From a virus, in IMG/VR virus record IMGVR_UViG_3300035187_002895, positions 5,480 to 69,479 of that record: a DNA stretch of 64,000 nucleotides. One strand, given 5' to 3'. The translations under genes were made by a program, and so were the position numbers. Numbering within the stretch: the stretch's first letter is position 1; every line of letters starts with the position of its first letter. Shown in pieces: positions 2,420 through 49,024 of the stretch. The notes below the pieces were generated by a model, which was given only the letters and a program-made list of their open reading frames with translations, searched no databases and had not been told where the DNA came from.

Positions 2420-2791
2420 TTAATTGAATCGGCCCTCCGAATCGGCCCAAAGAATCTTTTGGGTGACCAAATTGGCTATGATAACGCTCTGATGAAGCAT
2501 ACTCATGTAATACTCAAACTCCGTCATAACAGCATCAGGGCTGTTGCAAGGAACGGGAACCCCCTTGTCGTTCACACAATGGGAATTGTCCGCAATGAGC
2601 GACACAATTTTGGGGGGAATGATGTTTATGGGAGTATCATCCTTATCGAAGTAGTTCACCTGAACGGTGAGGTTGATGTTCTCTCCCATAAAGGGAACGG
2701 CATTGATAAGCAATCCGGCCATTGTGGCCGTCCTTTTGAACCCGTACACGGGGTCGTTGCTTATGGGTACTGTGATGTTGTAGTTGCTCAT
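2420..2791 (-). CDS. Hypothetical protein (possible tail-fibre accessory)
   Basis: 123-aa ORF directly downstream of the tail fibre gene. Confidence 0.6.
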   Translation of the reverse strand: MSNYNITVPISNDPVYGFKRTATMAGLLINAVPFMGENINLTVQVNYFDKDDTPINIIPPKIVSLIADNSHCVNDKGVPVPCNSPDAVMTEFEYYMSMLHQSVIIANLVTQKILWADSEGRFN

Positions 2792-2795
2792 GTTG

Positions 2796-5700
2796 TTATG
2801 CGCTTCCTTTCATTAAACCTTTATTTACCAATACAGTTCTTATTTCATTAAGGAGGGTAATAACCCCATCTGCTTGGGCTGCTGTAGAATAGCCCCATGG
2901 AGTTGTTTGTGTGGCTGCTGTTGTTGCAACCGCTGCCTGTGCAGCCGCTGCTCTTTGTGTGCTTGCAGTAGCTCCGTGAAATCCGAGTAATTGAGTGGTG
3001 CTTGTTCCAATTTGAGTCCCTGCGCCCGAAGTGGACAAGACAAGATTCACGCCCGTTGCAATAGTAAGTGCCGTGCTACTAATCGCTAATGCTGCGGTAG
3101 TGCTATTGGGATAGAAATTTATTGTTCCTCCTGAACTTATCCATGTTTGGGCACTTCCTACGCCAATACCATAATCTAATGAAGTAGTAGTATTGTTGGC
3201 GAAAAGAACAATTTTAGTACCTGCACTTCTAACAACAGACCCAACAGTAAATGCCGGATTTGCTGATACGCTTCCAAACTGCATATATTGAGCATTTGGA
3301 GACCCGCTGAAAAACAATGCTGGAATAGAATTATTTGTTGTTGAATCGGCAGTTAGATTTAACCCCCTTACAGTATTGCTATACTCAAATTGGGCCGCTG
3401 CAATAGGACTTGTAACACCCCCTCCGTTATTTGGATAGAACCTTATAAAATTAGGAGCCGAAAGCCATAAAATAGGGCCAGACCCTTCTGTTCCAATAGC
3501 AGCATCTATACTACTGGCACTAATATTTGGATAAAATGTTATTTTAGTTCCTGCACTTCTGGTTGTGAAAGATGGCACTGCAATATTGGATGTGTTGTTA
3601 AAATTCATCCAATTTATTGTACTACCTCCAATTGTCAATTGAGCATTTGTTGTGCTGCCCGTTGTGGGGGAAATGGAAACGGATGTGGCCGATGCCGGAC
3701 TGGAACTGAAGACGGCCTGTGCCGAAAAGGTTTTCGCCCCTGTGAAAGTTTGGGCGTTTTCAAGCAACGCTACAGTTCCTGTCAGGGCGGGTAGCGTCAC
3801 CGTTCCCGATGCCGTTGCGGATGCGTTCAGCGTGGTGGTTCCGCTTGAAGAACCCGCAAGAATAAGTGTTCCTGAGTTAAAGGTTTTTGCTCCTGTATTG
3901 GTTTGTGTAGAAGCCAAAATCATATTACCCGCCCCTGCCGCTGTCCATGACAAGTTCCCGCTGGCATCGCTGCTTAGTATCTGTCCTGCCGTAGGGGCCG
4001 TTGTGGGCCAATAGTAGTTGATGTTGGCCGCTGCACTTGTGGAAGCCTGTACCGTTGTTGTAAAGGCATTGGAACTATTACGGAATACAATCGTTCCTGT
4101 AACACTACTACTCACCCCAACATCCACTCCGCTATTGAATGTGGCCCGTCCCGCTGTGGAAAGGGTGGCTACGGATGGGTTGGCAAGAAGTTTTCCTGTG
4201 GTTCCACTAAATACGGCAAAGTTACCGTCCGTTGCAGAACCCGGCCCCACTACATCTCCCGTTCCCGAAACTGCCACCCATGACATTACGCCTCCCGTTG
4301 TGGCCGTCAGGAATTGATTGGCCCCTGTCGGATAGGCATTAGGAAGGGTGTATATCCCCGCTCCCGTCACCGTTGCTGGAGCCAGAAGGGAAACGGACCC
4401 CCCACCATTCACGCCAAGAACCAAGTCGGCTGAATTGCCGCCCCCTGCCGGAATTGTCAGGGTTTGGGTGCTGTCTATTAGGGCTACGGTTCCGCTTTGG
4501 TCAGGAAATGTGTAGATTTTGGTCGAAGTGGTGGCGGAAAACAAAAACTCGCTTTTAAAGGCATCTGTATCAAAAAAAACAGACATCTTTTTATCCCCGC
4601 CCTGTTCCCGAAAGAAAAGGGTGGCATAATTGTTTATACCCGTAGGGGCTGACCCTCCCGCTTTCCTGTAATGGGTGTGGCCATTCGTGGCATTATCCCC
4701 AAACTGAGGGCTGTAAAGGACAGGATTGGTGCTGAACACAAGGTTTGTGGTAGTAGTCCCTGTTGTTCCTGTGGCCCCTGAAAGATACTGAACCTGTGTC
4801 GTTGTGGTTGTGGAGGCTATCGGTAGGCCATTGGCATCACTCACCAAGGCCCTGTTTGCCGTTGGAGCCGTCAGGCCGCTTACGGCTGTTCCACTTGTGG
4901 CATAGTAGGCCAACTGATATTGCGTTCCGCTATTCACGGTTCCACTTCCAGTAGGAGAGGTCCACACCCCATCCGCCCGAAGGAAGTTTGCAGTTCCCCC
5001 GCCTGATGCCGGAACAACGCCCGAAAGGGAAGAGGAAAACTGATTTATCAATGCCGTCAGTTGGGTTTGCGTAAGGGCTATGGGTGTCGCTGAACTTCCT
5101 GTGTTGTTCCCTATTACGGTGTTGGCAGGAAGATTGGCCATCTTGGCAAGCGTAACGGCTGCGTTAGCTATCGTTACGGCTCCCGAAACGGCTATCGTTG
5201 CGTCCCCTGACATGGCCACCCACTTGTTCCCCGTTGTTGCTGCCGTGTCGGCCATTAGGAATGTGGCATTGGCCCCTATGGGCAATCGGGCAAGGGCCAC
5301 TCCTGTATGCGTCAACAGGTCGCCCTTGCTTGTCAGAATGGGAACATTTGGCGAAACAAGCCCTATTTCCCCTGTGCTGCTATTTATAGCAAAATCAGAG
5401 GCGTTGAAGTAAAGCTCCTGTACCTGACCGTTCGTTAAGGCATACCGCCCTAAAACGGTTTGGCTCTGAACATTCTGTATCTTGGGATAGGTGACGGCCC
5501 CGTTGGCTATTGTAAACTGAGCCTCATTGGTTCCGCTTACAATGGCGAAACTTGCCGTCAGGTCCCCCGCCACAACAGAGTTTACGGCTGCGCTGGCGGT
5601 GTTCCCCATAAAAATGGTGTTCACGGCCAAGGAATCTGTCAGGTAGCCGTCAAGGGCATCCTGTAGGCCGTCTATCTGCGTTATGGGGAAGTTGAACCCT

Positions 5701-38424: not shown

Positions 38425-40650
38425 TCAGGCCCTCACCTTTCGCAAAAAAGTTCCCCTCGGAAACAAGTTCGTCCCTGCCTTCACCGTTGTGTTTGCGTAC
38501 AAAAACGGGTTGCTGTATTCGTTCGTGTTGAACTCGTAGAAATGGGCCATTATTGTGGCCATGGTGCTATCACTTTTCGTCCTGTTGGTTATGTCAAACA
38601 TCATGTTGTCATTGATGCTCTGAATGAAAGGATACCGTATCGGTTCCTCAACAATGTTGTAGGTGTGTTCCCCCAGGAAGATGCTGTCCCCCCGAAGGAA
38701 GTCATTGAAGTATGTGGCCCCTTTCCGAACCACATCGTTCCCCTGTCCTTCTATTCCGGTATAGATTCCCACCGTTTCCCATTGAACCTGTGTCGGGCTT
38801 GCTTCGTTCAGGATTTCGGCTTCCCGTAACAGGAACCCTCCATAGCCCCTTGCGCTGAAAAAGTTCTCCACGCTTATTGAGGCGTTATTTTCGATTACAA
38901 TAGGCATGGAGTAGTACACAGCTGCCATAAGCAATTGTTCCATGTCCATGTTCGGATCGGCAGACCGATGCGTAAAGGAAAGGAACACGGCAGGGGTGGG
39001 GAAATAATTCGGCAAATTGTTTCCTGTTGTGGCCCTCACTTTTCTGTTTTCGTCCTCGTATGCCTTGTTGTAGTAGAGTTTGCCCGTTATGGCCATTTTG
39101 GAGCCTTTCCCTTTGGTGCTGGCTTTTAGGTAGGGGTCCACTCCCAAACAACCAAGTTTGCCGTTTACAGGGCATTTTACGCCCCTCTTTATTTGCATCC
39201 TGTTTATGTAGGCAGCAGGAGGTTCCCATGTCCTTTGGACGGTCCCCTTGTTGTCCTCTTTCCATCCCACTACGGTTTTCTCCTTTGGGTCCATCCAATA
39301 GAAGTAGCCCGTCCTCACCATGTCCTGAACGGACTTTATGTCTGCCGTCCTCTTGAGGGACTGGAGAATGGATATGTCGAAAGGGCAATGTTCGTTCAGG
39401 CTATTGAATGCGTCCGAAGGGGTGAAGGGGTTCTGTCGCATTTCCTCTGCGTACAGGTCGTCAAGCCCCGCTTCAAGGAGTTGTTGCCTGTCCCTGCTGA
39501 GTTTGTCCCTGCTCCCTATCCTTTCGTCATGGCCGTGTTTCTGCATCCATTCCCATTGTTCGTCATCGGGGTATTCCACAATGTCGTTCCCGTAGGCATC
39601 CGTCCAACCGGGAAGGCCCATGTAGGCAGGAAGGAACAGGGCTATCAGTTTGTTGGTAGTGGTGGGGTACTTCCCGTTCTGTCGGGTGTCAAGGTTGGCC
39701 TGTTCGTAAAACCTGCGGAACTCCTCGCCTCCCTGGTCGCCCTCTTCCGTTGTGGTGGGAAAGAAAGCAAAGCCCCTTTTGCGGCCATTCACCATCAAGG
39801 CCCTCACCTGTTTGGCCCACCATTTGGTGATTTGAACCTGCACCCATTTACCGCCCTCATCGGCAAAGAGGCCGTTCAGACGCTTTCCATCCCATCCCCG
39901 TTTGGTTAGGGCACGGAGCCTTATGGAGCCTCCAAGGGCCTTGGAAATGCTCGTTGTTTTCTTCGTTTTGGATTGCCGTTCGGGCGGTTCCACAAGAAGG
40001 AGTTCGTTCTTGAGCATCCTGTGGGTGGGAATAAGCCACAAAGGAAGGGACATAACAGGCTTGGAAATGAGTTCGTCAAAGTTCTCATCAGCAAGTTTCT
40101 GGTCGGAAGAAGAAAGCCCTATGTTCTGCTTTTCGGCCCGTATGGCAAGCCAGAACATTATCAGGTGGCCCCAAGTGGAAAGCCCCTCCTGACGGCCTTT
40201 CAGGTAGATAACGCCCAGTTCCTTGTGGTGCTGGAAAACATTCCAACAGAAATGAAGGATTTTCCGTTGGCGGTCCCTGTATTCAAGAAAGCCGTCAGAA
40301 GTTTCAAGGGCGGGTTTCCAATAGTTCAGGCCGAGGTACATCCAAGGGTTTATCCAAGTGAGAACGCCCCTGATATACATCCATTGGCCCGTATGGAAGA
40401 TTTTCTTCACCTCCTCCTTAATGAACTGTTGCTGAAGGGGCGTGTAACGGATGGAGCCGTCATCGGCCCGTTGGCCCTGTTCTATGTTCATGTAGTCAGG
40501 GATGGGCGTTCTTGTGAACTTGGCCTTGGGGTTTCCGTATCCGGGAACGGATGTAAGGTCTTCGGGAATGGGCGGGGAAATGCACTCCAGATTCCATATC
40601 GTTTCTACGATACGGTTTTTAACAAGTTTCTGGTTTTCCTTTAGTAACAT
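38425..40650 (-). CDS. terL: Terminase large subunit
   Basis: LKGRQEGLST (ATPase Walker A variant), LFADEGGKW (Walker B), GVDPY nuclease motif; 741 aa, crAss-like type. Confidence 0.9.
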   Translation of the reverse strand: MLLKENQKLVKNRIVETIWNLECISPPIPEDLTSVPGYGNPKAKFTRTPIPDYMNIEQGQRADDGSIRYTPLQQQFIKEEVKKIFHTGQWMYIRGVLTWINPWMYLGLNYWKPALETSDGFLEYRDRQRKILHFCWNVFQHHKELGVIYLKGRQEGLSTWGHLIMFWLAIRAEKQNIGLSSSDQKLADENFDELISKPVMSLPLWLIPTHRMLKNELLLVEPPERQSKTKKTTSISKALGGSIRLRALTKRGWDGKRLNGLFADEGGKWVQVQITKWWAKQVRALMVNGRKRGFAFFPTTTEEGDQGGEEFRRFYEQANLDTRQNGKYPTTTNKLIALFLPAYMGLPGWTDAYGNDIVEYPDDEQWEWMQKHGHDERIGSRDKLSRDRQQLLEAGLDDLYAEEMRQNPFTPSDAFNSLNEHCPFDISILQSLKRTADIKSVQDMVRTGYFYWMDPKEKTVVGWKEDNKGTVQRTWEPPAAYINRMQIKRGVKCPVNGKLGCLGVDPYLKASTKGKGSKMAITGKLYYNKAYEDENRKVRATTGNNLPNYFPTPAVFLSFTHRSADPNMDMEQLLMAAVYYSMPIVIENNASISVENFFSARGYGGFLLREAEILNEASPTQVQWETVGIYTGIEGQGNDVVRKGATYFNDFLRGDSIFLGEHTYNIVEEPIRYPFIQSINDNMMFDITNRTKSDSTMATIMAHFYEFNTNEYSNPFLYANTTVKAGTNLFPRGTFLRKVRA

Positions 40651-40687
40651 TCTCCGTTTTTTTAAGGGTGTGTGTTTTGGGTAAATA

Positions 40688-40715
40688 GGCGCAATTATGC
40701 GACTATAAAGTAGTT
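40688..40715 (+). other. attI-like recombination site 1
   Basis: GGCGCAATTATGCGACTATAAAGTAG^TT, identical to 43666-43693; ends in the GTT core that begins the first cassette. Confidence 0.75.
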
Positions 40716-41487
40716 AGCCGCAATACAGAGAAACCCTGCCAACCGAAGTGGCGAAGTGTTCTGCATCTTTTTCAATTCCTATGAAATTGCGGTTTAACAT
40801 TTCACAGGCTAATCCTGATTTATTACTACCCATCGTAAAATCTAATACCGTTTGACCTTCCAATGAATAAGTGTTTACTATGTACTTACATAATTCAATA
40901 GGTTTTTCAGTTTTATGAAATGTCTTTCCTTCACTTTCGGCAGTCTTAAAATACTGAACGCTTCGTGGGTATCTTAGCCCATCACTTTTTACTTCAACTT
41001 GTTCAAAACTACCATACACATCATTTTCAGTTTGTTGTTTCCTTACACCTTTATTGTAGGCAGTTCCTTCTGTCATTTGTGGGTAATAAACAGGCGTTCC
41101 TTTGCAGAAAACAACAATATCTTCGTGTGCTACCATTGGTCGTTTCTTAGCGTTTAAGAAGCCTGTTGCCTTTGATTTTTCCCAAACCCAAGTATATTTA
41201 AACATCTTCGGGTTGCTCATTATTAGATTGCTTGTAAATGGTTGCTGTGAATGAAATACTATTGGTGCATTTTGTTTAGATAATCTATTTACTTGTTGCC
41301 ACATTTTTTCAAAGTCTATCACATTATCCCAACTGCATTGTGTAGTGCCAAATGGTAAATCACAATAAATTAAGTCAATACTATTGGATGTTAAAAGCGG
41401 TAAAACTTCAAGGCAATCACCCTGATAGAATGTACTGCGGCTAACATCGGTTTTGCAATAGTGGGGCTTTTGTGCTATATCAATCAT
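40714..41487 (-). CDS. DNA methyltransferase, N6A/N4C family (cassette-borne)
   Basis: GDCLE, DLPFG (DPPY variant), HKTEKP, VLDFTMGS, FIGIE. Starts inside the attC-like site; its stop TAA is the TTA of the core. Confidence 0.9.
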   Translation of the reverse strand: MIDIAQKPHYCKTDVSRSTFYQGDCLEVLPLLTSNSIDLIYCDLPFGTTQCSWDNVIDFEKMWQQVNRLSKQNAPIVFHSQQPFTSNLIMSNPKMFKYTWVWEKSKATGFLNAKKRPMVAHEDIVVFCKGTPVYYPQMTEGTAYNKGVRKQQTENDVYGSFEQVEVKSDGLRYPRSVQYFKTAESEGKTFHKTEKPIELCKYIVNTYSLEGQTVLDFTMGSNKSGLACEMLNRNFIGIEKDAEHFATSVGRVSLYCG

Positions 41488-41569
41488 TTGTAATTCTATT
41501 AAATATTAGTTGTGGGTTGAACATTTGTGCCTTGAAACCCCACCATCGCAAAGCCGTATTCCGTTAGCC
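41436..41569 (+). repeat. attC-like site 1
   Basis: TGCGGCTAAC-ATCGGTTTTGCAATAGTGGGG...CCCCACCATCGCAAAGCCG-TATTCC-GTTAGCC imperfect palindrome. Confidence 0.85.
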
Positions 41570-41570
41570 A

Positions 41571-41786
41571 CTATTGCTTCAATCTCCAAACTTGGTGTAG
41601 TGTATTATCACCTATCATTTCTGCTAAGTGTTTCTCGCAACAATGAGTGTAGTCTTCATAAGTTTTACCCTCTCCAATGTCTTGCACCTGAAATACGGCT
41701 TTGTCGTTACAATTAAGCTCGCAACAGTGCAATGACGGCTGGCTTTGTTCGTTCAATTGTGGTGTTTCAAATAACCTTTCCTGCAT
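41571..41786 (-). CDS. Small Cys/His protein (cassette remnant)
   Basis: 71 aa, CCELNC...HCCEKH possible Zn finger. Confidence 0.55.
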   Translation of the reverse strand: MQERLFETPQLNEQSQPSLHCCELNCNDKAVFQVQDIGEGKTYEDYTHCCEKHLAEMIGDNTLHQVWRLKQ

Positions 41787-41789
41787 ATT

Positions 41790-42215
41790 TCAATCCTTTC
41801 CTTTCCGTTTCTTTTTCAGGGCAAGCTTCAGGTCCTCCACGGCCTTCCGTAGAATCAATGTGCAATTTATAACTTTTTCCGAACTCTGTATCTTCGGGAG
41901 CCGTTTCTGTACCTTCACCAATGCCCTCGTAAGGGCCTGTGCCTCCGTCTTCATCTGGAACGCCTCATAGTCCCGTTCCAATGTGCTATTGGCCGCATAA
42001 GCGGGTAGGCCCCCCTTCCACAATGAACGGCCCGGATAGAAAAAGTTGGTTGGATGGACATACTCCTTCTTGACGGGTCCGAATTGGTGCATTACGGCAG
42101 ACAGGTCGTCATTGACGGCCACCACCTGCCACTTTGCCGTTACATACCGGCCTCTTACAAATATAAAATCGCCAGTCTTTATCATGTGCTTTCTCCGTGT
42201 TGGTTGTCGCTTCAT
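41790..42215 (-). CDS. Hypothetical protein
   Basis: 141-aa ORF with backbone-like composition. Confidence 0.55.
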   Translation of the reverse strand: MKRQPTRRKHMIKTGDFIFVRGRYVTAKWQVVAVNDDLSAVMHQFGPVKKEYVHPTNFFYPGRSLWKGGLPAYAANSTLERDYEAFQMKTEAQALTRALVKVQKRLPKIQSSEKVINCTLILRKAVEDLKLALKKKRKGKD

Positions 42216-42462
42216 GGATGTATTTAACTCGTTTTAAAATGTATTCCTTTTTCGTTTCCGCAAACAGGACAAACTCCCCCTTGTACACCCTCCTCAGATA
42301 CTGCCTGATTTCCATGTAGGTTTGGGTGCGGAAGTAATACTTGCTTACAGGAATGATGTGTCCCAAAGGAAGGGACTGTAGCCTGTCGGCAAATATTTTA
42401 CTCAGCAGTTTCGGGGGTTTCCTTCCCCTTGTTGCCCTTTCTTTCAACAGCCGGACTTTCAT
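42109..42462 (-). CDS. Hypothetical basic protein (possible DNA-binding)
   Basis: 117 aa with RGRKP motif; overlaps neighbours. Confidence 0.45.
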   Translation of the reverse strand: MKVRLLKERATRGRKPPKLLSKIFADRLQSLPLGHIIPVSKYYFRTQTYMEIRQYLRRVYKGEFVLFAETKKEYILKRVKYIHEATTNTEKAHDKDWRFYICKRPVCNGKVAGGGRQ

Positions 42463-42964
42463 GTTTTATTTCCCGTAATGCAGCTTCCAAAGCCCCTTCA
42501 CCAAAATCACTTTCCAGTTTTCCGGTATTGAAGTCGGCCTCGGCCTTTTCATTTTTCTTAAACAAATCTTCTGCCATTCTTTTGATTTCGTCCATGACAG
42601 GCTTTAACTTTAGGCTATTCTCAATCTTAACCTTGTAAGAGGAGTTTTCGTTTGGCCTTCCGTCAGGTTCAGGAGTGCGGATGGATTCGCAGACATTGTG
42701 GTACATTCTCACCATGGACCAATAGGCTTCGGCCTTTATGTTGAGGGCAAAGTGTTCCCTGCTCCCAATCAAAAGGACCTCATCAGGAAGGGAAAACCCC
42801 ACCCTACGGGTTGTTTCGGCCACCCTTCCCTCCCATGTGAGGCTCAGGGGAATCGTGTCGCTGTACACCAACTCCACCCACTCTTTTTGCCTTTCGGTAA
42901 GTTTTATTGTGGGCAGAGAGGATGTACTTAATTCCTCTGAAGGTTGTTTCTTTGACTTCGCCAT
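42398..42964 (-). CDS. Hypothetical protein (candidate terminase small subunit)
   Basis: 188-aa helical protein upstream of terL; candidate by position only. Confidence 0.45.
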   Translation of the reverse strand: MAKSKKQPSEELSTSSLPTIKLTERQKEWVELVYSDTIPLSLTWEGRVAETTRRVGFSLPDEVLLIGSREHFALNIKAEAYWSMVRMYHNVCESIRTPEPDGRPNENSSYKVKIENSLKLKPVMDEIKRMAEDLFKKNEKAEADFNTGKLESDFGEGALEAALREIKHESPAVERKGNKGKETPETAE

Positions 42965-43229
42965 TTTGAATTTGTTCTAAAAGTTGTTCGATTAGGTCCA
43001 CCAGGGGAGGAACCATTCCGATTATGTAGCTGTCCTGTTCGCTATGGATTCCGGTGGCTACAAGAAAGTTGCCCCCTCTAACATAGATTTCATAGCATTT
43101 AAGGTGGTTGTTAAAAACTCTTCTCCAGCAATCCTTGGATGGCGGAAGACAATCCACTCTTTCCGGCCTTTTTTTGGGGCTATCCTTGGTTTGGCCCGTG
43201 TCCTGCTGATCCGTTGGGTTAGTTTCCAT
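42804..43229 (-). CDS. Hypothetical protein
   Basis: 141-aa ORF with A-rich start context. Confidence 0.45.
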   Translation of the reverse strand: METNPTDQQDTGQTKDSPKKRPERVDCLPPSKDCWRRVFNNHLKCYEIYVRGGNFLVATGIHSEQDSYIIGMVPPLVDLIEQLLEQIQNGEVKETTFRGIKYILSAHNKTYRKAKRVGGVGVQRHDSPEPHMGGKGGRNNP

Positions 43230-43351
43230 GATTTTTTAAGGTCTGTTTTTCGTGCCTTTGGGAAGCGTTGGATTCCTGTTTGCATAAATTCCCCGAAGGA
43301 ATAAAACCGAAGCCGTCCTGTGTCCCGTGTCCATTTTTCTGTACCGTCCAT
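43058..43351 (-). CDS. Hypothetical protein
   Basis: 97 aa, TAATG coupling to the upstream gene. Confidence 0.4.
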   Translation of the reverse strand: MDGTEKWTRDTGRLRFYSFGEFMQTGIQRFPKARKTDLKKSWKLTQRISRTRAKPRIAPKKGRKEWIVFRHPRIAGEEFLTTTLNAMKSMLEGATFL

Positions 43352-43629
43352 TATTCATTCAGGAGCGTTTCATACATTTCCAGAAGTGTTTCTGCCTTTA
43401 GAAATTCTGAACTATAGGCAAGGGAGAACCAATTGGGGCAATCTGGAAGGGTTTGGTCCCAATTCCATTTGGTTTTGAGTTGTTCAAAGATTTCCCTTGC
43501 TTTCGGAGGTTCTTCAAAGTCTAATGCGGTAAACAGACGGGAAAGGTCTGATTGCATTTCTTTTTCCTTTCTCACCCAGTAAAGGGACTTCACCTGAAAG
43601 TAGAATGGTATTAATTTGGTTATGTTCAT
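43351..43629 (-). CDS. Hypothetical protein
   Basis: 92-aa ORF beginning just beyond attI-like site 2. Confidence 0.55.
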   Translation of the reverse strand: MNITKLIPFYFQVKSLYWVRKEKEMQSDLSRLFTALDFEEPPKAREIFEQLKTKWNWDQTLPDCPNWFSLAYSSEFLKAETLLEMYETLLNE

Positions 43630-43665
43630 TTCGATTTTGTTTTTGTTTCGCTTTTTGGTCGTGTT

Positions 43666-43693
43666 GGCGCAATTATGCGACTATAAAGTAGTT
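43666..43693 (+). other. attI-like recombination site 2
   Basis: GGCGCAATTATGCGACTATAAAGTAG^TT, 28/28 identical to site 1. Confidence 0.75.
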
Positions 43694-43710
43694 ATAAAAC
43701 ATTAAAACGA

Positions 43711-43859
43711 TTTTATAACAAAGTATATAAGTAATGTTTGGGTTGGTTTACCAATCTAATAACCTTCCAGTAATTAACCACCTCATTCATTAGTAGGGTG
43801 CAAGGTGTTCTCTAAACACGAACCACCCAAACACATACTTATATACTCAATCGTTAGCG
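43711..43859 (+). repeat. attC-like site 2
   Basis: TTTTATAAC-AAAGTATATAAGTAATGTTTGGGT...ACCCAAACACATACTTATATACT-CAATC-GTTAGCG. Confidence 0.85.
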
Positions 43860-44312
43860 GTAATTTAAGACAGAGAACGTGCCAACCTTTGCCTTCTCCC
43901 CGAAAATGATAATACACATCGGCAACCAAAGTCCACGTTCTTCATCATTAAAATTTACCTCGCCATTGATAAAACGAATTTCTGCTTTTACACAAACTTC
44001 CGCCCACCATTTTGTATTGCTTCTTACAGGTATTAAACAAACTTTCGTTCCTCCAAACCTTTCAGCATCATTACACGCTTTTTTTACCCACTTATTCAAA
44101 TCTCTGCTAAATGGTGGGTTCATCCAACAATTACCTTCCCAATTCATAGCAAGTGAATTATCTTCCTTTGTCCAATATTCGGGCAGTTTGTAGTTTAATG
44201 CACTTGCACAAACATCTCTTGTTAAGCCAAATTCGTTTATCAATGGCTGTACTATTTTAAGCGGAGTACTATACTCAACGCTATTACTTTCTCCTACTAC
44301 TTGTGTTCCCAT
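43854..44312 (-). CDS. Phage N6-adenine methyltransferase (Dam-like, PF05869-type), cassette-borne
   Basis: YSTP...DVCAS...WMNPPFS...LIPVRSNTKWW...IRFINGEVNF; stop codon lies in the GTTA core. Confidence 0.85.
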   Translation of the reverse strand: MGTQVVGESNSVEYSTPLKIVQPLINEFGLTRDVCASALNYKLPEYWTKEDNSLAMNWEGNCWMNPPFSRDLNKWVKKACNDAERFGGTKVCLIPVRSNTKWWAEVCVKAEIRFINGEVNFNDEERGLWLPMCIIIFGEKAKVGTFSVLNYR

Positions 44313-44342
44313 ATTTTAAATTTTAATTTCTGAATAATAAAC

Positions 44343-44479
44343 TACCGCTAACACGGGTTTTGCGTCAGCAGGGGTTTCGTTTTTTAATTCAGCTTTTTTT
44401 CATTCTATTAAACTTTAGTTGTTAATTAATCATTTGTGCTTCTAAGCCCTGCCGAACGCAAAGCCCGAAACCGTTACCT
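44343..44479 (+). repeat. attC-like site 3
   Basis: TACCGCTAAC-ACGGGTTTTGCGTCAGCAGGG...CCCTGCCGAACGCAAAGCCCG-AAACC-GTTACCT. Confidence 0.85.
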
Positions 44480-44485
44480 GCAAGG

Positions 44486-44698
44486 CTACGATTGACGTTC
44501 CAAATCAGGCGAAGGCTCACACTTTGTATCGGGCATTTGATTAAAAACTTGTTTAATTGTGCTTACATCATATCCATCGAGTTCCAATGCTAATTCAAGT
44601 GCATTTCTAACTGCATACGGATAATAGCAAGTTTTTAAATCAATGGTTACAATTGGTGTTTGCCTTTCGTCTTGGTTTCTTTCTACAATAATTTTCAT
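44486..44698 (-). CDS. Hypothetical protein (cassette-borne)
   Basis: 70-aa ORF filling the cassette. Confidence 0.6.
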   Translation of the reverse strand: MKIIVERNQDERQTPIVTIDLKTCYYPYAVRNALELALELDGYDVSTIKQVFNQMPDTKCEPSPDLERQS

Positions 44699-44736
44699 TT
44701 CGTTTTTAAATTAAATTCCTACTGATAAACCGCCCA

Positions 44737-44825
44737 GCAGGTAACAGCGGTTTGGCAAAAGCTGCCATTGAAATTTTTGCAAAAATTGAGCATCCGTTAT
44801 GCAGCCTTCGCCAAGCCGAGAACCA
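44737..44825 (+). repeat. attC-like site 4 (right core lost)
   Basis: GCAGGTAAC-AGCGGTTTGGCAAAAGCTGC...GCAGCCTTCGCCAAGCCG-AGAACC, then ATC where GTT is expected. Confidence 0.8.
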
Positions 44826-45098
44826 TCATCCCTTCCATATCACAAGGTGTTTAGGGCCGTTTTCAGAGGCCAAATGAAAATCATACCGGAAACGACCCTT
44901 CACCCCGTTCAGCTTCCGCCATCGGGCAAAAGTGGACCTCACCGTGTCGTATTGGTCCCTTCCCACTCCCAACAGAACCACATAGGTTACATTCGGATGC
45001 AGAAAGTTCGTGTAGTCGTATGTCAAAGGACGGCCCCGCCCGTCTGACTTGGGAAACAATGGGGCCTCCGTTTTCTTCTTCTTCTTCTTCGTTTTCAT
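44826..45098 (-). CDS. Hypothetical basic protein (possible DNA-binding)
   Basis: 90 aa, poly-Lys and GRGRP motif. Confidence 0.55.
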   Translation of the reverse strand: MKTKKKKKKTEAPLFPKSDGRGRPLTYDYTNFLHPNVTYVVLLGVGRDQYDTVRSTFARWRKLNGVKGRFRYDFHLASENGPKHLVIWKG

Positions 45099-45733
45099 TT
45101 CCGTCTTCGTTTCACATATCCCATCCGTTCCGCATCAGGGCCGTGAGCCAGCACCATCCTTCTGCGAACCAAAAAGCCTCCGTCCCATCCCACACGAACA
45201 TTGGATTCGTCCCCCCAAAAGAGAACGGTGTTTTCGGGGAAGTGTTCGTTCTGTCCCGATACCACTCCCCTATCGGTGTAGAACTCCCGTATCTTTTCCA
45301 CGGGCTTTTGGAGGGTGTCGTAACTTATCAATTCCACATTGGGAAGAATCAGGCCCGATTTGGACCGGGCCGTTTGTATGGGCTTGCAATAAATGTACTC
45401 CCCCACCATTCGGTCCCCAACGCTTATGATGCTCTGAGGAAGCACAAGAAGGTGTCCGTTTATCTTCGGGGTGTTTCCCTTGTAAGTGGAATGGGCCTCC
45501 GAAAACCAAAACCGAACCTTTTCCCCCACAATGGGGGTGTTCAGTTCGTCCTTGAGCGGGGCCTTTACCACCGTTCCCTCCTCGCATAACCCGTTCGTTT
45601 CGTTGTATATATTGGAAGGGGCATGGAGCAAAAGGGTTCCGTGCTGTATGGTTTCCTCGTAAATGCCACGGATGGCAACAAGGTATTCCCTGATGGGTTG
45701 GAGGTTGGGGGTATATTCCGTTACGAAAGCCAT
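45095..45733 (-). CDS. Tandem GroES-like domain protein
   Basis: Two GroES-like halves (LQPIREYLV...EGTVVKAP...VGEKV; EYIYCKPI...KSGLILP...RGVV). Confidence 0.6.
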   Translation of the reverse strand: MAFVTEYTPNLQPIREYLVAIRGIYEETIQHGTLLLHAPSNIYNETNGLCEEGTVVKAPLKDELNTPIVGEKVRFWFSEAHSTYKGNTPKINGHLLVLPQSIISVGDRMVGEYIYCKPIQTARSKSGLILPNVELISYDTLQKPVEKIREFYTDRGVVSGQNEHFPENTVLFWGDESNVRVGWDGGFLVRRRMVLAHGPDAERMGYVKRRRK

Positions 45734-46023
45734 TACAACAGGATGCAGTGAATGTCGTGTTCCCGAAGGATGAGGTATTCCACCTTGTCAAATTCCACCC
45801 TTGTTCCGGCCCCTTTTGTGTAAAGGACCTTTTGGCTGTGTTTGATTATTTCGCATTTGTTTCCTACACAAATCACTTCTCCTTGGGGAGGGGATTCCTT
45901 TGCGGTATCGGGAATGATAAGGGTTCCTTTTTCGTCATAGAAATCAGCGGGTTTGTCAGGAAGCACAAGTACCCTTGTGTCCACCATCACTACATTGGGA
46001 TGTTTCATTTTTTGTTTTTGCAT
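45733..46023 (-). CDS. groES: Co-chaperonin GroES
   Basis: RVLVLP...GTLIIPDTAKESPPQGEVICVG...KVLYTKGAGTRV...EYLILREHDI. Confidence 0.9.
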   Translation of the reverse strand: MQKQKMKHPNVVMVDTRVLVLPDKPADFYDEKGTLIIPDTAKESPPQGEVICVGNKCEIIKHSQKVLYTKGAGTRVEFDKVEYLILREHDIHCILL

Positions 46024-46030
46024 TAGCGCA

Positions 46031-46060
46031 CAAATGTAAAGGGATTATTTCACAATCAAA
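46031..46060 (-). promoter_or_regulatory. Bacteroidota-type promoter for groES
   Basis: Minus strand TTTG-N18-TACATTTG. Confidence 0.55.
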
Positions 46061-46109
46061 ACAAAAAAAATTCAGGCTTTATTTTCCGGTTTCGCTTTGC
46101 TGGCAAATA

Positions 46110-46137
46110 GGCGCAATTGTTCGCATACAGCGTAGTT
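46110..46137 (+). other. attI-like recombination site 3 (variant)
   Basis: GGCGCAATT-GTTCGCATACAGC-GTAG^TT: same first 9 bp, same length and same GTAGTT end as sites 1 and 2. Confidence 0.7.
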
Positions 46138-46142
46138 ATGTG

Positions 46143-46370
46143 TCATTTTAGACGAGCATACCATTTCAATCTATCATCATTACCAATTTCAACCAATTCA
46201 AATTTAACCGTTCTGTTTTCTAAGATAGCCCAAGGATGAAAATTAAAACTCAAAGGGTCTATTGGTAATTCACCATTTCTATTACCAGTTAAATTTGAAT
46301 TATCGCACTTTACAACCCAATAAGGTTCAATGTTGAAATTGGTTGATTTAATTAAAGTTCCTGTTTCCAT
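46143..46370 (-). CDS. Hypothetical protein (cassette-borne)
   Basis: ORF 46143..46469; likely start METG at 46370, since the longer form reads through the attC-like site. Confidence 0.55.
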   Translation of the reverse strand: METGTLIKSTNFNIEPYWVVKCDNSNLTGNRNGELPIDPLSFNFHPWAILENRTVKFELVEIGNDDRLKWYARLK

Positions 46371-46389
46371 ATTTATTTGAATTAAAAAC

Positions 46390-46486
46390 GACACATAACA
46401 AAGTGTATAAGAAAGTTTGCTATAAAGTTTAGTGCTAATTTGAAAGTTTCTACAAGCAAACCTTCTCATACACCCAGTCGTTATAG
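46390..46486 (+). repeat. attC-like site 5
   Basis: GACACATAAC-AAAGTGTATAAGAAAGTTTGCT...AGCAAACCTTCTCATACAC-CCAGTC-GTTATAG. Confidence 0.85.
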
Positions 46487-46492
46487 GTAAGG

Positions 46493-46735
46493 CTAAAGAC
46501 CGAGTAACTCCGACAATTCATTTTGCTTTTTAGTTAGCCATTCCTTTGCTAATCTTTTACCATCTTCTAAATCGTAGCCTTCTCCGATATATTCGTTTCC
46601 AATAGTTACAGAATAGCTATCACTTTCTTTCCATCCTTTCCATTCAATTAGGCATTGACCTAATGGTGTTTCAGAAATAACGTGAGTATAATGGCTCACT
46701 CCTTGTTTTGGGTCTTTTGGTTCTGTCCAATTCAT
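46493..46735 (-). CDS. Hypothetical protein (cassette-borne)
   Basis: 80-aa ORF filling the cassette. Confidence 0.65.
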   Translation of the reverse strand: MNWTEPKDPKQGVSHYTHVISETPLGQCLIEWKGWKESDSYSVTIGNEYIGEGYDLEDGKRLAKEWLTKKQNELSELLGL

Positions 46736-46759
46736 TTTATTAAAATTTGTGAGAAGCCC

Positions 46760-46894
46760 TACCTATAACAGCACATAGGCAATATGGTGGGGTTCTCGGT
46801 TAATATTAAGTTTCGTTTTCAATTCATGTTTTGTGCTTACAGAGAGGTTAGTGTTCCAAAATCCGCCACATCGCCTATCTGCATCACGTTAGTA
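46760..46894 (+). repeat. attC-like site 6
   Basis: TACCTATAAC-AGCACATAGGCAATATGGTGG...CCGCCACATCGCCTATCTGC-ATCAC-GTTAGTA. Confidence 0.85.
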
Positions 46895-46900
46895 GCCATT

Positions 46901-47383
46901 TTAGGACAGACGTACATACCGCCCTTTAATGCTACAATTTTTTAGTATTTCAGCGTTTTCTTCACCATAAGCAATCAATACGCTTGGTGCTCCAGCCGTT
47001 CCACCTTTTTCGCCTGTAACGTGGTAAAAAGACAATCTACCTTTAATGAATAGTATTGCAGTTGCTTTATCCCATACACATTTAAAAAACATTTTCGTTT
47101 CAGTCCTTGCAAAAGTCAAGGCTATACAATTTCCGTGCATTACTGCCTTTTCTAAAAAAAGTTCTGTGTATTTTCCGTAAGGTGGATTACACCAAACTCT
47201 ACCATACCAATTTTGCATCAGTCCGTTATCATTAATATTAAAATGATTTTTAGCTGTGTCCCAAGGTCTTTCAATCGGGCTACACGGATCTAAATCAAAT
47301 TCGCCTAATGCTTTTACTAATTCGGGTGGGGTAAGCCACTCGTCTTTTCCTGTACTTGTATTACCTTCAAATGTTACATTCAT
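46901..47383 (-). CDS. Phage N6-adenine methyltransferase (Dam-like, PF05869-type), cassette-borne
   Basis: DEWLTPP...FDLDPCS...VWCNPPYG...ARTET...LFIKGRLSF. Confidence 0.9.
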   Translation of the reverse strand: MNVTFEGNTSTGKDEWLTPPELVKALGEFDLDPCSPIERPWDTAKNHFNINDNGLMQNWYGRVWCNPPYGKYTELFLEKAVMHGNCIALTFARTETKMFFKCVWDKATAILFIKGRLSFYHVTGEKGGTAGAPSVLIAYGEENAEILKNCSIKGRYVRLS

Positions 47384-47411
47384 ATTTTTTAAATTAATTC
47401 GTAAAAAAAAC

Positions 47412-47511
47412 GGCTACTAACACGCAATTGGCAAAATAAAAGCCATCAAGTGTAGTGCTAAACTTCAACGGTAGTGCAAGGCTTTTACTTCGCCAATCGC
47501 CACCGTTACCA
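47412..47511 (+). repeat. attC-like site 7
   Basis: GGCTACTAAC-ACGCAATTGGCAAAATAAAAGCC...GGCTTTTACTTCGCCAATCGC-CACC-GTTACCA. Confidence 0.85.
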
Positions 47512-47517
47512 CCAATG

Positions 47518-47931
47518 CTATAAGACACGGTAGTAGTTCTTTTCAAATATTCTGACAACCATATCACGTTCCCATTTTGACAACTTTGACTGTTTGTTTT
47601 GAATAAGTCCATATTCTTTGACAATATCAGTTCTATCAGGCAATTTGCGTTCATATCGACTTTCTCCATACCCATACAAATCATTCATATAAGGCATATA
47701 AATCATTGAAGCCATTGCCATAATTCCACCAAGTTTTGATGAAACGTGTTTATGTTTCCTTTGCTCTGTTTTTATCGGAGCATATTTTACACCGTTTAAA
47801 TCAAAACTTTCATCGTATGAATGTGAATTTGGTTCATCAACTATAATCACATCAACACCTTTGTTTTTTAATGCTTCGGCAACTGCTTTCCCAGAGCCAT
47901 CAATTCCAATTATTCCTATTTTATTTTCCAT
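47518..47931 (-). CDS. Hypothetical protein with Rossmann-like N-terminus (cassette-borne)
   Basis: 137 aa starting KIGIIGIDGSGKAVAEAL..GVDVIIVD. Confidence 0.6.
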   Translation of the reverse strand: MENKIGIIGIDGSGKAVAEALKNKGVDVIIVDEPNSHSYDESFDLNGVKYAPIKTEQRKHKHVSSKLGGIMAMASMIYMPYMNDLYGYGESRYERKLPDRTDIVKEYGLIQNKQSKLSKWERDMVVRIFEKNYYRVL

Positions 47932-47962
47932 TTGTTTGTTAAATTAAATTCATTAAAAGCAC

Positions 47963-48052
47963 TGGTGGTAACAGCACATAAGCAAAAGCCCAAAATCCAA
48001 CCGCACAATGCCACCGCTATTTGTGCCTTCGCTTATCTGCAAAACGTTACCG
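47963..48052 (+). repeat. attC-like site 8
   Basis: TGGTGGTAAC-AGCACATAAGCAAAAGCCCAAA...TTTGTGCCTTCGCTTATCTGC-AAAAC-GTTACCG. Confidence 0.85.
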
Positions 48053-48072
48053 CACCACCTTACCGCACCACC
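48047..48072 (+). repeat. 13-bp direct tandem duplication at the right junction of array 3
   Basis: TTACCGCACCACC twice, starting exactly at the G^TT position. Confidence 0.8.
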
Positions 48073-48080
48073 CCTCCTGC

Positions 48081-48488
48081 TCACTGCACCACCTCATTTC
48101 CCCGCCTGAGTTCCCTTTGGTTTCCGGTTTCGGTTTTGTGGCATCCCTTACACAACACTTCCAACAGGGAAGGGTCCTCCACGAAAAGCCGTTCACAAAA
48201 TCCCGGAAGGTCTTCGTATCTCCGAAGGCTCCCAACAGGAACGATGTGGTTCACTTCTACATTCCTCCTGTCGTAAAACCTTTGGCAGCGGGAACACAAG
48301 TAGGCCACCCGCTTACTGCGGCCCACATACGAAACGGATGAGGCCCGTTTCAGGGCTACATTGAAGGGCTTCCACCAACGGGATAGGTTCCGTAACGCTG
48401 ACCGTATCTTGCCCATATGGGCCGATTGCGTTTCCGTTCCGCTGTTGCGGGTCCGCTCAACTCTGGGGGCTTTTACCGTTCGTTTCAC
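48081..48488 (-). CDS. HNH-family endonuclease-like protein
   Basis: CSRC...EVNHIVPVG...LEVLCKGCH. Confidence 0.75.
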   Translation of the reverse strand: MKRTVKAPRVERTRNSGTETQSAHMGKIRSALRNLSRWWKPFNVALKRASSVSYVGRSKRVAYLCSRCQRFYDRRNVEVNHIVPVGSLRRYEDLPGFCERLFVEDPSLLEVLCKGCHKTETGNQRELRRGNEVVQ

Positions 48489-49024
48489 TCTCTTTCAAAA
48501 ATCAAATTGTTGTCAAGGCAATGGAACACCTGAAGGAAGTACCGCCTGTCCCTGGGGTGTACTTCCCCCGTGTAACTCTTGTATGTCCTCCCGTTTGTCA
48601 TCCGTATCTTGTGCATCGGGTAGGTTCGCAACAGGTCCGATTCCCGTTCCGTAAAGGTGAAGTAGGCTTCCCCCGAACAATTGAAAGGCTTCCATGATTT
48701 CTTCACCAGTTTGGCCCCGTTCTCAAACAGGACGATGATTTCATCGTTTTCGTTACAGGCCCCAAGGCCCACCATCAAAACGGATACCACAACGCTCAGG
48801 TCGTCCCGGATAATGGGGCTGACAATAAAGCCGAGTTTGCTCGTTTCGTTGGCCACCACAAAGTCCCGTGTGGTGAACAGGTAGGACTTACCCGACATTT
48901 GGTCGGTTTCCCTGTAAATGAAAACGCTGTCGGACTTTTTGAAAGCGTAAACCGTGTCAGGGGACTGTCCCGAAGCACAGGAAAGGGACAGGGCAAAGGA
49001 AAGGGCCGTTATGAAGTGTTTCAT
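48485..49024 (-). CDS. Exported protein with signal peptide
   Basis: MKHFITALSFALSLSCASGQ signal-like N-terminus; host-like periplasmic protein. Confidence 0.6.
   Translation of the reverse strand: MKHFITALSFALSLSCASGQSPDTVYAFKKSDSVFIYRETDQMSGKSYLFTTRDFVVANETSKLGFIVSPIIRDDLSVVVSVLMVGLGACNENDEIIVLFENGAKLVKKSWKPFNCSGEAYFTFTERESDLLRTYPMHKIRMTNGRTYKSYTGEVHPRDRRYFLQVFHCLDNNLIFERE

What the first reader, a model, noticed from the sequence alone, without database searches (positions are those of the whole stretch)
40714..47931. All cassette ORFs are inverted, and some use the recombination site as coding signal
Seen: core complementarity fixes cassette polarity on the plus strand, but all eight cassette ORFs are on the minus strand, matching the surrounding phage transcription. 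Two MTase genes use the TTA of the G^TTA core as their TAA stop (40714, 43854). The 257-aa MTase starts inside its own palindrome (41487) and translates through one arm (KPHYCKTDVSRS). Established: canonical cassettes are mostly read from attI toward attC under a Pc promoter. Inference: these cassettes are expressed by read-through of phage operons toward the attI-like site, so newest cassettes would be promoter-distal. This hints at a phage-adapted cassette pool rather than captured host cassettes.
Basis: partly seen in the sequence, partly recalled or inferred. Interest (0 to 1): 0.7.

Follow-up and report, generated by a model that had tools for sequence, protein, structure and literature searches.

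The report
Mirror-image integron cassettes in a phage
This lake phage carries three short integron-style arrays of swappable gene cassettes, mostly DNA methylases, and their genes all point the opposite way from the genes in matching arrays of Flavobacterium-type bacteria, so phages seem to keep their own mirror-image stock of mobile genes.

Summary
The window has 8 cassettes in 3 arrays. Seven carry an ORF and one has none. Each array starts at a conserved attI-like site ending in G|TTA, and each cassette ends in a 100-150 nt attC-like palindrome. A covariance model built from related sites finds exactly these 8 sites, all on the minus strand. Each cassette's first ~15 nt pair with the far arm of its own palindrome, not with the neighbouring one. 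That places the crossover at G|TTA on the plus strand. All cassette ORFs lie on the minus strand. Two methylases use the core's TTA as their TAA stop, and one starts inside its palindrome.

The sites belong to a family found in 125 of 151 Flavobacteriaceae genomes searched. There they form long arrays beside a XerA-like recombinase. In host arrays the ORF lies on the top strand in 121 of 146 cassettes and on the bottom strand in 9. In viral contigs it is bottom in 97 of 123 and top in 1. Ten related phages lack all three arrays.

Read-through expression was not tested. Phage attC clusters with methylases are already published (Qi 2023). The systematic inversion was not found in print.

The parts
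38425..40650 (-). Backbone gene: terminase large subunit. It lies immediately downstream, in the sense of transcription, of array 1.
   Evidence: phrog_6681, E 3e-48. It is 78-84% identical in 8 related phages, where no array precedes it.
40675..40716 (+). attI-like site 1 (repeat D2), ending in GTAG|TTA. It marks the start of array 1.
   Evidence: A 29-nt exact repeat occurs at 40688-40716 and 43666-43694, with 0 expected by chance. The D2 family was reported. Array-start sites in other phages share its features. It resembles sites beside recombinase genes.
40714..41563 (+). Cassette 1. It holds the N6/N4 DNA methyltransferase ORF 40714-41487 (minus strand, 257 aa) and attC-like site 41431-41577.
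   Evidence: PF01555, 4.7e-23. R1 scores 106 bits. Tail and arm pair at 10/10 positions. The stop codon is the core TTA, and the start codon lies inside the site.
43653..43694 (+). attI-like site 2 (D2). It marks the start of array 2.
43692..43853 (+). Cassette 2, without an ORF. It consists of attC-like site 43704-43867 only.
   Evidence: R1 scores 35.7 bits, E 4e-6. The inverted repeat has 27-nt arms. Tail and arm pair at only 6/10 positions.
43854..44473 (+). Cassette 3. It holds the Dam-type methyltransferase ORF 43854-44312 (minus strand, 152 aa) and attC-like site 44338-44487.
   Evidence: PF05869, 6.9e-22. R1 scores 114.7 bits. Tail and arm pair at 10/10. The stop codon is the core TTA.
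44474..44825 (+). Cassette 4. It holds ORF 44486-44698 (minus strand, 70 aa) and attC-like site 44731-44841. The outer core of this site is degenerate: TGATG stands in place of TAACG on the minus strand. This is the end of array 2.
   Evidence: R1 scores 35.5 bits, and the alignment shows the degenerate core. Tail and arm pair at 8/10. The site is 84.5% identical to a site in megaphage LR756502.
45733..46023 (-). Backbone gene: GroES-like co-chaperonin. It lies just downstream of array 3.
   Evidence: PF00166, 1.5e-15. It is conserved in related phages next to the HNH gene, without an array between them.
46097..46138 (+). attI-like site 3 (D2). It marks the start of array 3.
46136..46480 (+). 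Cassette 5. The ORF ends at 46143 and starts at 46469 or 46370 (minus strand, 108 or 75 aa). The attC-like site is 46385-46494.
   Evidence: R1 scores 73.5 bits. Tail and arm pair at 10/10. No family hit was found.
46481..46888 (+). Cassette 6. It holds ORF 46493-46735 (minus strand, 80 aa) and attC-like site 46755-46902.
   Evidence: R1 scores 117.7 bits. phrog_33319 matches. The site plus tail is 87% identical to hattifnatt9-1, which carries an unrelated ORF in the same frame.
46889..47505 (+). Cassette 7. It holds the Dam-type methyltransferase ORF 46901-47383 (minus strand, 160 aa) and attC-like site 47407-47519.
   Evidence: PF05869, 3.7e-13. R1 scores 68.7 bits. Tail and arm pair at 10/10.
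47506..48046 (+). Cassette 8. It holds ORF 47518-47931 (minus strand, 137 aa, with a weak Rossmann-like hit) and attC-like site 47958-48061. This is the end of array 3.
   Evidence: R1 scores 41.4 bits. Tail and arm pair at 10/10. KARI_N matches at 20.9 bits, which is borderline.

Best explanation
The region holds three integron-like cassette arrays of the kind found in Flavobacteriaceae chromosomes. They are inserted at three intergenic points of a conserved phage backbone.

Structure. Each array starts at an attI-like site. Each cassette is bounded by G|TTA and carries its own attC-like palindrome. The minus ('bottom') strand of that palindrome folds better than the plus strand.

Mobility (inferred). 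Cassettes move as circles. In a circle the cassette's first ~15 nt would re-pair with the far arm of its palindrome. The recombinase would be a XerA-like tyrosine recombinase supplied in trans by the host or by another phage. None is encoded in the 69-kb record.

What sets the phage apart. Phage cassettes are built as a mirror image of host cassettes. The ORF is on the folding strand, the palindrome lies upstream of it, and the stop codon sits in or beside the crossover core.

Expression (inferred, not shown). The ORFs are transcribed with the surrounding minus-strand genes, running toward the attI-like site and into the next backbone gene.

Likely use. Three of the seven cassette ORFs are orphan DNA methylases. 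The likely use is protection against host restriction enzymes.
For: Site family.
- The 84 aligned sites have 21 consensus pairs, 15 of them with compensatory changes. TAACG...TGTTA is invariant.
- The model finds all 8 window sites on one strand.
- The bottom strand is the more stable one in 106 of 117 sites and in 7 of the 8 window sites.

Cassette logic.
- Cognate tail and arm pair at a mean of 9.25 of 10 positions, against 3.4 for non-cognate pairs.
- Across 220 loci, 340 of 364 tail/arm pairs carry the same A.C (G.T on the bottom strand) at position 11.

Breakpoints at G|TTA. Metagenome contigs from three runs end within 2 nt of five predicted boundaries. One contig joins attI-like site 1 directly to cassette 8, but its shorter side is only 27 nt, so this is weak.

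Accessory nature. Ten related phages keep the backbone order and lack all attI-like sites and cassettes.

Host link.
- R1 hits occur in 125 of 151 Flavobacteriaceae genomes.
- A 345-aa recombinase sits next to a >28-kb array in G031. It scores 232 bits against NF040815, whose cut-off is 220.
- Homologues occur in 105 of 151 genomes.

Orientation. CM-defined cassettes: host 121 top, 9 bottom, 16 unclear; viral 1 top, 97 bottom, 25 unclear. The tail/arm method gives host 25 sense, 4 anti, 2 unclear and viral 215 anti, 1 sense, 35 unclear. In three cultured phages, all 25 R1 sites lie on the strand of the GenBank-annotated CDS.

Coding use of the site. In 56 of 245 inverted ORFs the stop is the core TAA. 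In 93 of 245 the stop lies at tail positions 14-16.

Experiment in print. One attC of Polaribacter phage P12002L was recombined by IntI1 as bottom strand only (Qi 2023, PMC9892861; sections and passages read).
Against: - No tyrosine, serine or Y1 recombinase is found in the 69-kb record, which is 72% complete.
- None is found in 3 viral records that are at least 90% complete, nor in 3 complete cultured phages.
- The host recombinase lacks the insert that defines integron integrases. Its link to the arrays rests on adjacency only.
- No recombination and no transcription was observed here.
- Cassette 2 pairs at only 6 of 10 positions, and the last site of array 2 has a degenerate core.
- The viral loci were gathered with one 17-nt seed taken from one site subtype. 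The host loci were picked for strong hits. ORF strands were called by a longest-ORF rule, which left 41 of 269 interiors unclear.
Confidence: 0.8

Rival explanations
1. There is one shared pool, filtered by selection. Phages draw cassettes from host arrays, and only the inverted minority survives in phages because it is co-oriented with phage transcription. On this view there is no separate phage-made pool.
For: Host arrays do hold inverted cassettes: 9 of 146. In G031, four of the first six cassettes next to the recombinase gene are inverted. One methylase-like host protein has 7 viral cassette homologues.
Against: None of the 9 inverted host cassette proteins has a viral homologue, and only 1 of 121 top-strand ones does. 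Viral interiors are less than half the host size. The stereotyped stop positions, 149 of 245 at two fixed offsets, suggest that the cassettes were formed in this orientation.
Confidence: 0.2
2. The palindromes are only transcription or RNA-processing signals, such as terminators or stem-loops between early genes.
For: The sites lie between small early-type genes. They fold best on the transcribed strand, through G.T (G.U) pairs. No recombinase is present in the record.
Against: The cassette-specific 10-nt tags flank the ORF rather than the hairpin. Similarity breaks exactly at G|TTA. The same family forms arrays beside a tyrosine recombinase in hosts and in 3 viral loci. A related phage site was recombined by IntI1 (PMC9892861).
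Confidence: 0.07
3. The polarity is misread. The crossover is on the TAAC side, so phage cassettes are canonical (site first, then ORF) and host cassettes are the inverted ones.
For: Tail/arm pairing alone cannot say which neighbouring palindrome travels with an ORF. This is my own reasoning.
Against: Arrays start with a non-palindromic attI-like site followed directly by tail and ORF. Window and hattifnatt share tail, leader and the palindrome to the right, but not the one to the left. In hosts the site beside the recombinase gene is followed by G|TTA and a tail. The host-phage contrast holds under either convention.
Confidence: 0.04

Closest known systems
Clusters of attC sites without an integrase (CALINs) in virulent phages (Qi et al. 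2023, PMC9892861; outline, section 3.4 and passages read)
   Same: These are attC-type sites between small genes of virulent phages, with orphan DNA methylases as cargo and no integrase nearby. One of their cases, Polaribacter phage P12002L, gives 4 weak R1 hits on the methylase strand. Its methylase resembles the window's.
   Different: They report 17 CALINs in 10,705 phage genomes, each with as few as two sites. For P12002L they note only 'divergent directions'. The main text never mentions Flavobacterium (0 occurrences), attI-like sites in virulent phages, or a systematic ORF inversion. Their supplementary tables could not be seen and may list more.
Sedentary chromosomal integrons, such as the Vibrio arrays with near-identical ~125-nt attC repeats (recalled)
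   Same: Both have long arrays and species-typical attC sites of about 124 nt. Both have cassette boundaries at G|TT, and the first bases of a cassette are complementary to its own inner core.
   Different: Here the complementary tag is 15 nt with two fixed G.T pairs. The neighbouring recombinase lacks the integron-integrase insert. In phages the ORFs are on the folding strand.
Integrons with the integrase in 'reverse orientation', typical of Spirochaetota (mentioned in Ghaly 2022, passage read)
   Same: In the Flavobacteriaceae host arrays the recombinase gene lies upstream of the cassette ORFs and points the same way. This was seen in 8 genomes by coordinates.
   Different: In the 3 viral loci that have the gene, it lies after the attI-like site on the bottom strand. 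The order there is cassettes, site, recombinase, all in one direction.
Xer-type recombination of folded single strands, as in filamentous phages that integrate at dif (recalled)
   Same: A Xer-family enzyme is the likely catalyst. The best solved relative is XerA 5hxy, aligned end to end. A folded single strand is the likely substrate.
   Different: Here there are arrays of exchangeable cassettes, not integration of a whole phage.

Membership tests
Integron (complete) | An integron integrase gene beside the array, carrying the IntI-specific extra domain | tested here: not met
   No PF00589 match in the 69-kb record. The recombinase beside host arrays aligns to IntI4 (2a3v) with about 47 residues of the chain unmatched, where 6 query residues stand. 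It aligns end to end with XerA. Its TIGR02249 score is 215 bits, below the cut-off of 265.
Integron (complete) | An attI site at the head of the array | tested here: inconclusive
   A conserved non-palindromic site ending in AG|TTA heads each of the 3 arrays. It resembles sites beside recombinase genes in hosts and phages. Its function was not tested.
attC recombination site | Imperfect palindrome with outer cores ...AAC and GTT..., an inner stem, and unpaired bases on one strand | tested here: met
   TAACG...TGTTA is invariant in 84 sites. The inner stem covaries, with compensatory changes in 15 of 21 pairs. A 3-4 nt bulge follows TAACG on the minus strand in the folds. Rfam has no matching family.
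attC recombination site | Crossover at G|TT of the 3' core, so that a cassette begins with TT... complementary to its own 5' core | tested here: met
   Cognate pairing is seen. Homology breakpoints fall at G|TTA. The exact phosphate cannot be placed within the shared GTTA.
attC recombination site | Recombined by an integron integrase, with the bottom strand preferred | not testable with these tools
   Shown only for one site of Polaribacter phage P12002L with IntI1 (PMC9892861).
CALIN (cluster of attC sites lacking an integrase) | Two or more attC sites close together with no integrase nearby | tested here: met
   There are 8 sites in 6.6 kb and no tyrosine recombinase in the record. The record is 72% complete.
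Canonical gene cassette | ORF on the top strand, read from attI toward its attC | tested here: not met
   All 7 cassette ORFs are on the bottom strand. Among viral contigs, 97 of 123 are bottom and 1 is top.

The most novel reading that the evidence does not exclude
Flavobacteriia and their phages share an integron analogue run by XerA-like recombinases that lack the IntI domain. Within this system phages maintain a separate, mirror-image cassette pool. In that pool each unit is a palindrome, a leader, an ORF and a stop codon set in the crossover core. Each unit is tagged by a cassette-specific 15-bp helix that closes only in the excised circle. Phages would use these arrays, placed at several attI-like sites within their operons, as a rapidly exchangeable kit of methylases and other early genes against host defences.
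Probability: 0.45. Interest if true: 0.85.

Novelty: new variant of a known kind. Interest (0 to 1): 0.78.

Why it matters
Integrons are known as bacterial gene-capture devices, and recent work shows that host arrays store anti-phage defences. Here the same kind of device appears on the phage side in many uncultured phage contigs and in cultured Flavobacterium phages. It carries counter-defence genes, and its cassettes are built the other way round.

This opens three questions to test:
- how cassettes are made, since one site type carries unrelated ORFs in a fixed frame;
- what sets strand choice in folded-DNA recombination;
- whether phages and hosts trade cassettes.

Cultured phage-host pairs exist for these tests. 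The result also suggests that standard integron finders miss a large site family in Bacteroidota.

Tried and rejected
- Rfam, at gathering and at E-value thresholds, and tRNA scans found nothing.
- Serine recombinase and Y1 transposase families: no match in the record.
- Counting GTTA..TAAC pairs over the whole record gave 11, against a shuffle mean of 3.5 and a maximum of 11. I dropped this as a test.
- RNA evidence: no RNA holder is listed among the 24 runs.
- Laid contigs: runs X5 and X6 give little or no depth over 46.2-47.3 kb. Several joints skip exactly an ORF interior (43874 to 44334, and 44488 to 44732). All have short sides of 21-29 nt at 90% likeness, so they may come from other organisms or repeats. 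I do not use them as evidence.
- A promoter inside the sites for the sense strand: the Bacteroidetes consensus, recalled from memory, occurs on the bottom strand in 3 of 117 sites as a -7 box and in 0 as a full promoter. It occurs in none of the 8 window sites. This is a weak negative.
- Idea of RNA-level closure of each ORF by the 15-bp helix with a G.U pair: not excluded. The DNA breakpoints and the recombinase-linked host arrays explain the helix without it.
- The 'genome contigs' hits of the seed pattern (42 anti, 3 sense) were first read as host arrays. Most are short contigs from metagenome bins, so I replaced them with model hits in large host contigs.
- Loci L117 and L139 were dropped as duplicates of L101 and L136. 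Loci with a single hit give no interior.
- Papers: searches found no report of inverted phage cassettes or of Flavobacteriaceae arrays.

Full report
**What is there.** The window is part of a 69,479-b virus record that is 72% complete. From 38 to 56 kb all genes lie on the minus strand. They include a terminase large subunit, an HNH endonuclease, a NinB-like protein, DnaB and GroES. Three DNA methyltransferases are confirmed: 40714-41487 (PF01555), 43854-44312 and 46901-47383 (both PF05869). GC content falls to 35-41% in five of the eight 1-kb bins between 40 and 48 kb, the ones that hold most of the cassettes, against 45-53% for the bins on either side.

**The sites.** A repeat of about 40 nt ending in GTAG|TTA occurs at 40675-40716, 43653-43694 and 46097-46138. 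A fourth copy lies outside the window. To the right of each repeat, on the plus strand, come units bounded by G|TTA. Each unit ends in a 100-150 nt imperfect palindrome that begins with TAAC.

I collected similar palindromes from related loci and aligned 84 of them. The consensus fold has 21 pairs, 15 with compensatory changes, and TAACG...TGTTA is invariant. I built model R1 from this alignment. With filters off, R1 finds exactly eight sites in the 64-kb window, all on the minus strand. Five of them were not in the training set. The next best hit has E=0.25.

All eight fold at least as well as minus-strand DNA, for example -17.8 against -8.8 kcal/mol. A 3-4 nt bulge follows TAACG.

**Polarity.** The ten variable bases after each G|TTA pair with the arm next to the TAAC of the same unit. 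That pairing runs across the ORF. The counts are 10, 6, 10, 8, 10, 10, 10 and 10 of 10. Non-cognate combinations average 3.4 (n=72). Each arm pairs with the right end of its own palindrome at only 2-5 positions. This is the signature of an integron cassette, which is opened at the 3' core of its site when it inserts.

Position 11 of the tag is always A opposite C on the plus strand, which is a G.T wobble on the minus strand. Across 220 loci, 340 of 364 such pairs obey this rule.

Which palindrome travels with an ORF was settled by comparison:
- Flavobacterium phages hattifnatt9-1 and mymlan6-1 share the same 90 nt up to GTAG|TTA, and hattifnatt then has three extra cassettes.
- Window cassette 46481-46888 and a hattifnatt cassette share the 15-nt tail, the leader and the right-hand palindrome (87% identity). 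They differ to the left of G|TTA, to the right of the next G|TTA, and in the ORF itself, where blastp finds no similarity.

So the plus strand is the 'top' strand in integron terms.

There are eight cassettes in three arrays of 1, 3 and 4. Seven carry an ORF, always on the minus strand, and cassette 43692-43853 has none. The TTA of the core is the TAA stop of two methylases. The 257-aa methylase starts at 41487, 56 nt inside site 41431-41577, and reads through the arm. No other in-frame start precedes its conserved domain.

This use of the site for coding is general. Among 245 distinct inverted cassette ORFs from other loci, 56 stop at the core TAA and 93 stop at tail positions 14-16.

**The arrays are accessory.** Ten related phages, with terminase 51-84% identical, were fetched. 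In the relatives tabulated, the gene order is NinB, HNH, GroES, o212, o90, o97, o141b, o188, o117, o141, terminase. They have no D2 site. One R1 hit was found in all ten loci together. The three arrays therefore sit at three intergenic points of a conserved backbone.

Contigs of other lake metagenomes end within 2 nt of five predicted boundaries. One contig joins D2 site 1 to cassette 8, but its shorter side is 27 nt, so this is only a hint.

**What family this is.** R1 matches 125 of 151 Flavobacteriaceae genomes searched, often 20 or more times each. In G031 a 345-aa tyrosine recombinase gene is followed by at least 30 sites over 29 kb. The protein passes NF040815 ('XerA / integron integrase') at 232 bits against a cut-off of 220. 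It misses TIGR02249 at 215 against 265. Against IntI4 (2a3v) it lacks the roughly 47-residue insert that defines integron integrases, and it aligns end to end with XerA. Homologues occur in 105 of 151 genomes.

By coordinates, in eight genomes the gene lies upstream of the array on the top strand. The site between gene and array ends in AG|TTA or CG|TTA after an A/T-rich TATA-type stretch. This resembles the window's D2 and many array starts in viral contigs.

Three viral loci carry a homologue of about 270 aa. There it follows the attI-like site on the bottom strand. Of 32 viral records with arrays, 5 have such a gene. None of the 3 records that are at least 90% complete has one, and none of the 3 cultured phages does.

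**The key comparison.** I defined cassette interiors as the DNA between consecutive same-strand R1 hits, 90-4000 nt apart. I then asked on which strand the longest ORF lies.
- Host arrays (19 loci, 14 genomes): 121 top strand, 9 bottom, 16 unclear, n=146.
- Viral contigs (29 groups of hits): 1 top, 97 bottom, 25 unclear, n=123.
- Fisher p=2e-52.
- Window: 4 bottom and 3 unclear. Two of the unclear ones are backbone stretches between arrays. The third is methylase B, where a 104-aa antisense ORF blurs the rule.

An independent tail/arm method gives host 25 sense, 4 anti and 2 unclear. It gives viral 215 anti, 1 sense and 35 unclear. In hattifnatt, mymlan and P12002L, all 10, 11 and 4 R1 sites lie on the strand of the deposited CDS annotation.

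Viral interiors are shorter, with a median of 306 nt against 724 nt. The two sets of cassette proteins hardly overlap: 1 of 121 host top-strand proteins has viral homologues, and 0 of 9 host bottom-strand ones do.

**How it most likely works.**
- Shown: the site family, the boundaries, the strand bias, and the accessory nature of the arrays.
- Inferred: cassettes excise as circles and insert at the attI-like G|TTA, through a XerA-like recombinase made by the host or by a co-infecting phage. The cassette-specific tag, kept complementary in hundreds of cassettes, closes only in the circle. This argues that the circular form is under selection.
- Inferred: the ORFs are read with the long minus-strand gene cluster toward the attI-like site. 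No sense-strand promoter motif (recalled consensus) is present in the sites. No RNA data exist.

**Comparison with what is known.** Qi et al. 2023 reported attC clusters without an integrase in virulent phages. One was in Polaribacter phage P12002L, with two methylases. They showed IntI1-dependent recombination of one of its sites as bottom strand. The IntegronFinder 2.0 paper states that in Bacteroidetes only integrase-only elements and one Salinibacter integron were found (passage). Reviews list Bacteroidota among phyla with integrons (passages).

Six literature searches found nothing on a systematic inversion in phages, on attI-like sites in virulent phages, or on these Flavobacteriaceae arrays. 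Supplements were closed.

I file the finding as a new variant of a known kind.

**Limits.** The viral loci were gathered with one seed pattern from one site subtype. The host loci were chosen for strong hits. ORF strand was called by a length rule. The role of the recombinase rests on adjacency. Nothing here shows recombination or transcription directly.

Noticed in passing
Host genomes G031-G183, e.g. L233/L234 (G031:C23:1-36000) and L235, L249, L236 (G171:C1:90000-150000): Flavobacteriaceae chromosomes hold very long arrays of this site family beside a XerA-like recombinase that lacks the IntI insert. In G171 the sites run over about 60 kb. R1 hits occur in 125 of 151 genomes and the recombinase in 105 of 151. 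The IntegronFinder 2.0 paper reports almost no integrons in Bacteroidetes, so this family may be largely unannotated.
   Followed up: partly
Outside the window: G000:C1:3300-3670 (L003 1163-1533): A fourth D2 copy lies on the other strand, with core GTTG instead of GTTA. A weak R1 site (28.6 bits) follows it, and a short ORF points toward it. This looks like a fourth one-cassette array.
   Followed up: partly
window 48047-48072: A 13-nt unit is repeated in tandem directly after the G|TTA core of the last site of array 3, at the junction with the backbone. Its meaning is unknown.
   Followed up: no
window 41571-41786, 43351-43629, 48485-49024: Three small ORFs next to the arrays (71, 92 and 179 aa) are also missing from the tabulated relatives of this phage. 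They have no site of their own. They may be decayed cassettes, or genes that arrived with the arrays.
   Followed up: partly
window 46481-46888 versus L004 2767-3162: The same tail, leader and palindrome (87% identity) enclose unrelated ORFs of 80 and 76 aa in two unrelated phages. One site type is therefore attached to different genes within a fixed frame. This bears on how cassettes are made.
   Followed up: partly
L013, L017, L053, L056 (contigs of metagenome bins labelled Nitrosotalea, Woesearchaeota, Methanolobus, Saccharibacteria): These contigs carry phage-type inverted cassettes of this Flavobacteriia-type family. L013 has 7. They may be phage contigs placed in the wrong bins, which matters for any claim of integrons in such lineages.
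   Followed up: no
L006 (uncultured phage LR756502, 642 kb) 2671-3851: A megaphage record holds four R1 sites. One cassette frame is 84.5% identical to window cassette 4.
   Followed up: partly
L233 1310-4330: In host G031, four of the six cassettes nearest the recombinase gene are inverted, and the rest of the array is canonical. These could be recent imports from phages. No viral homologue was found for them.
   Followed up: partly
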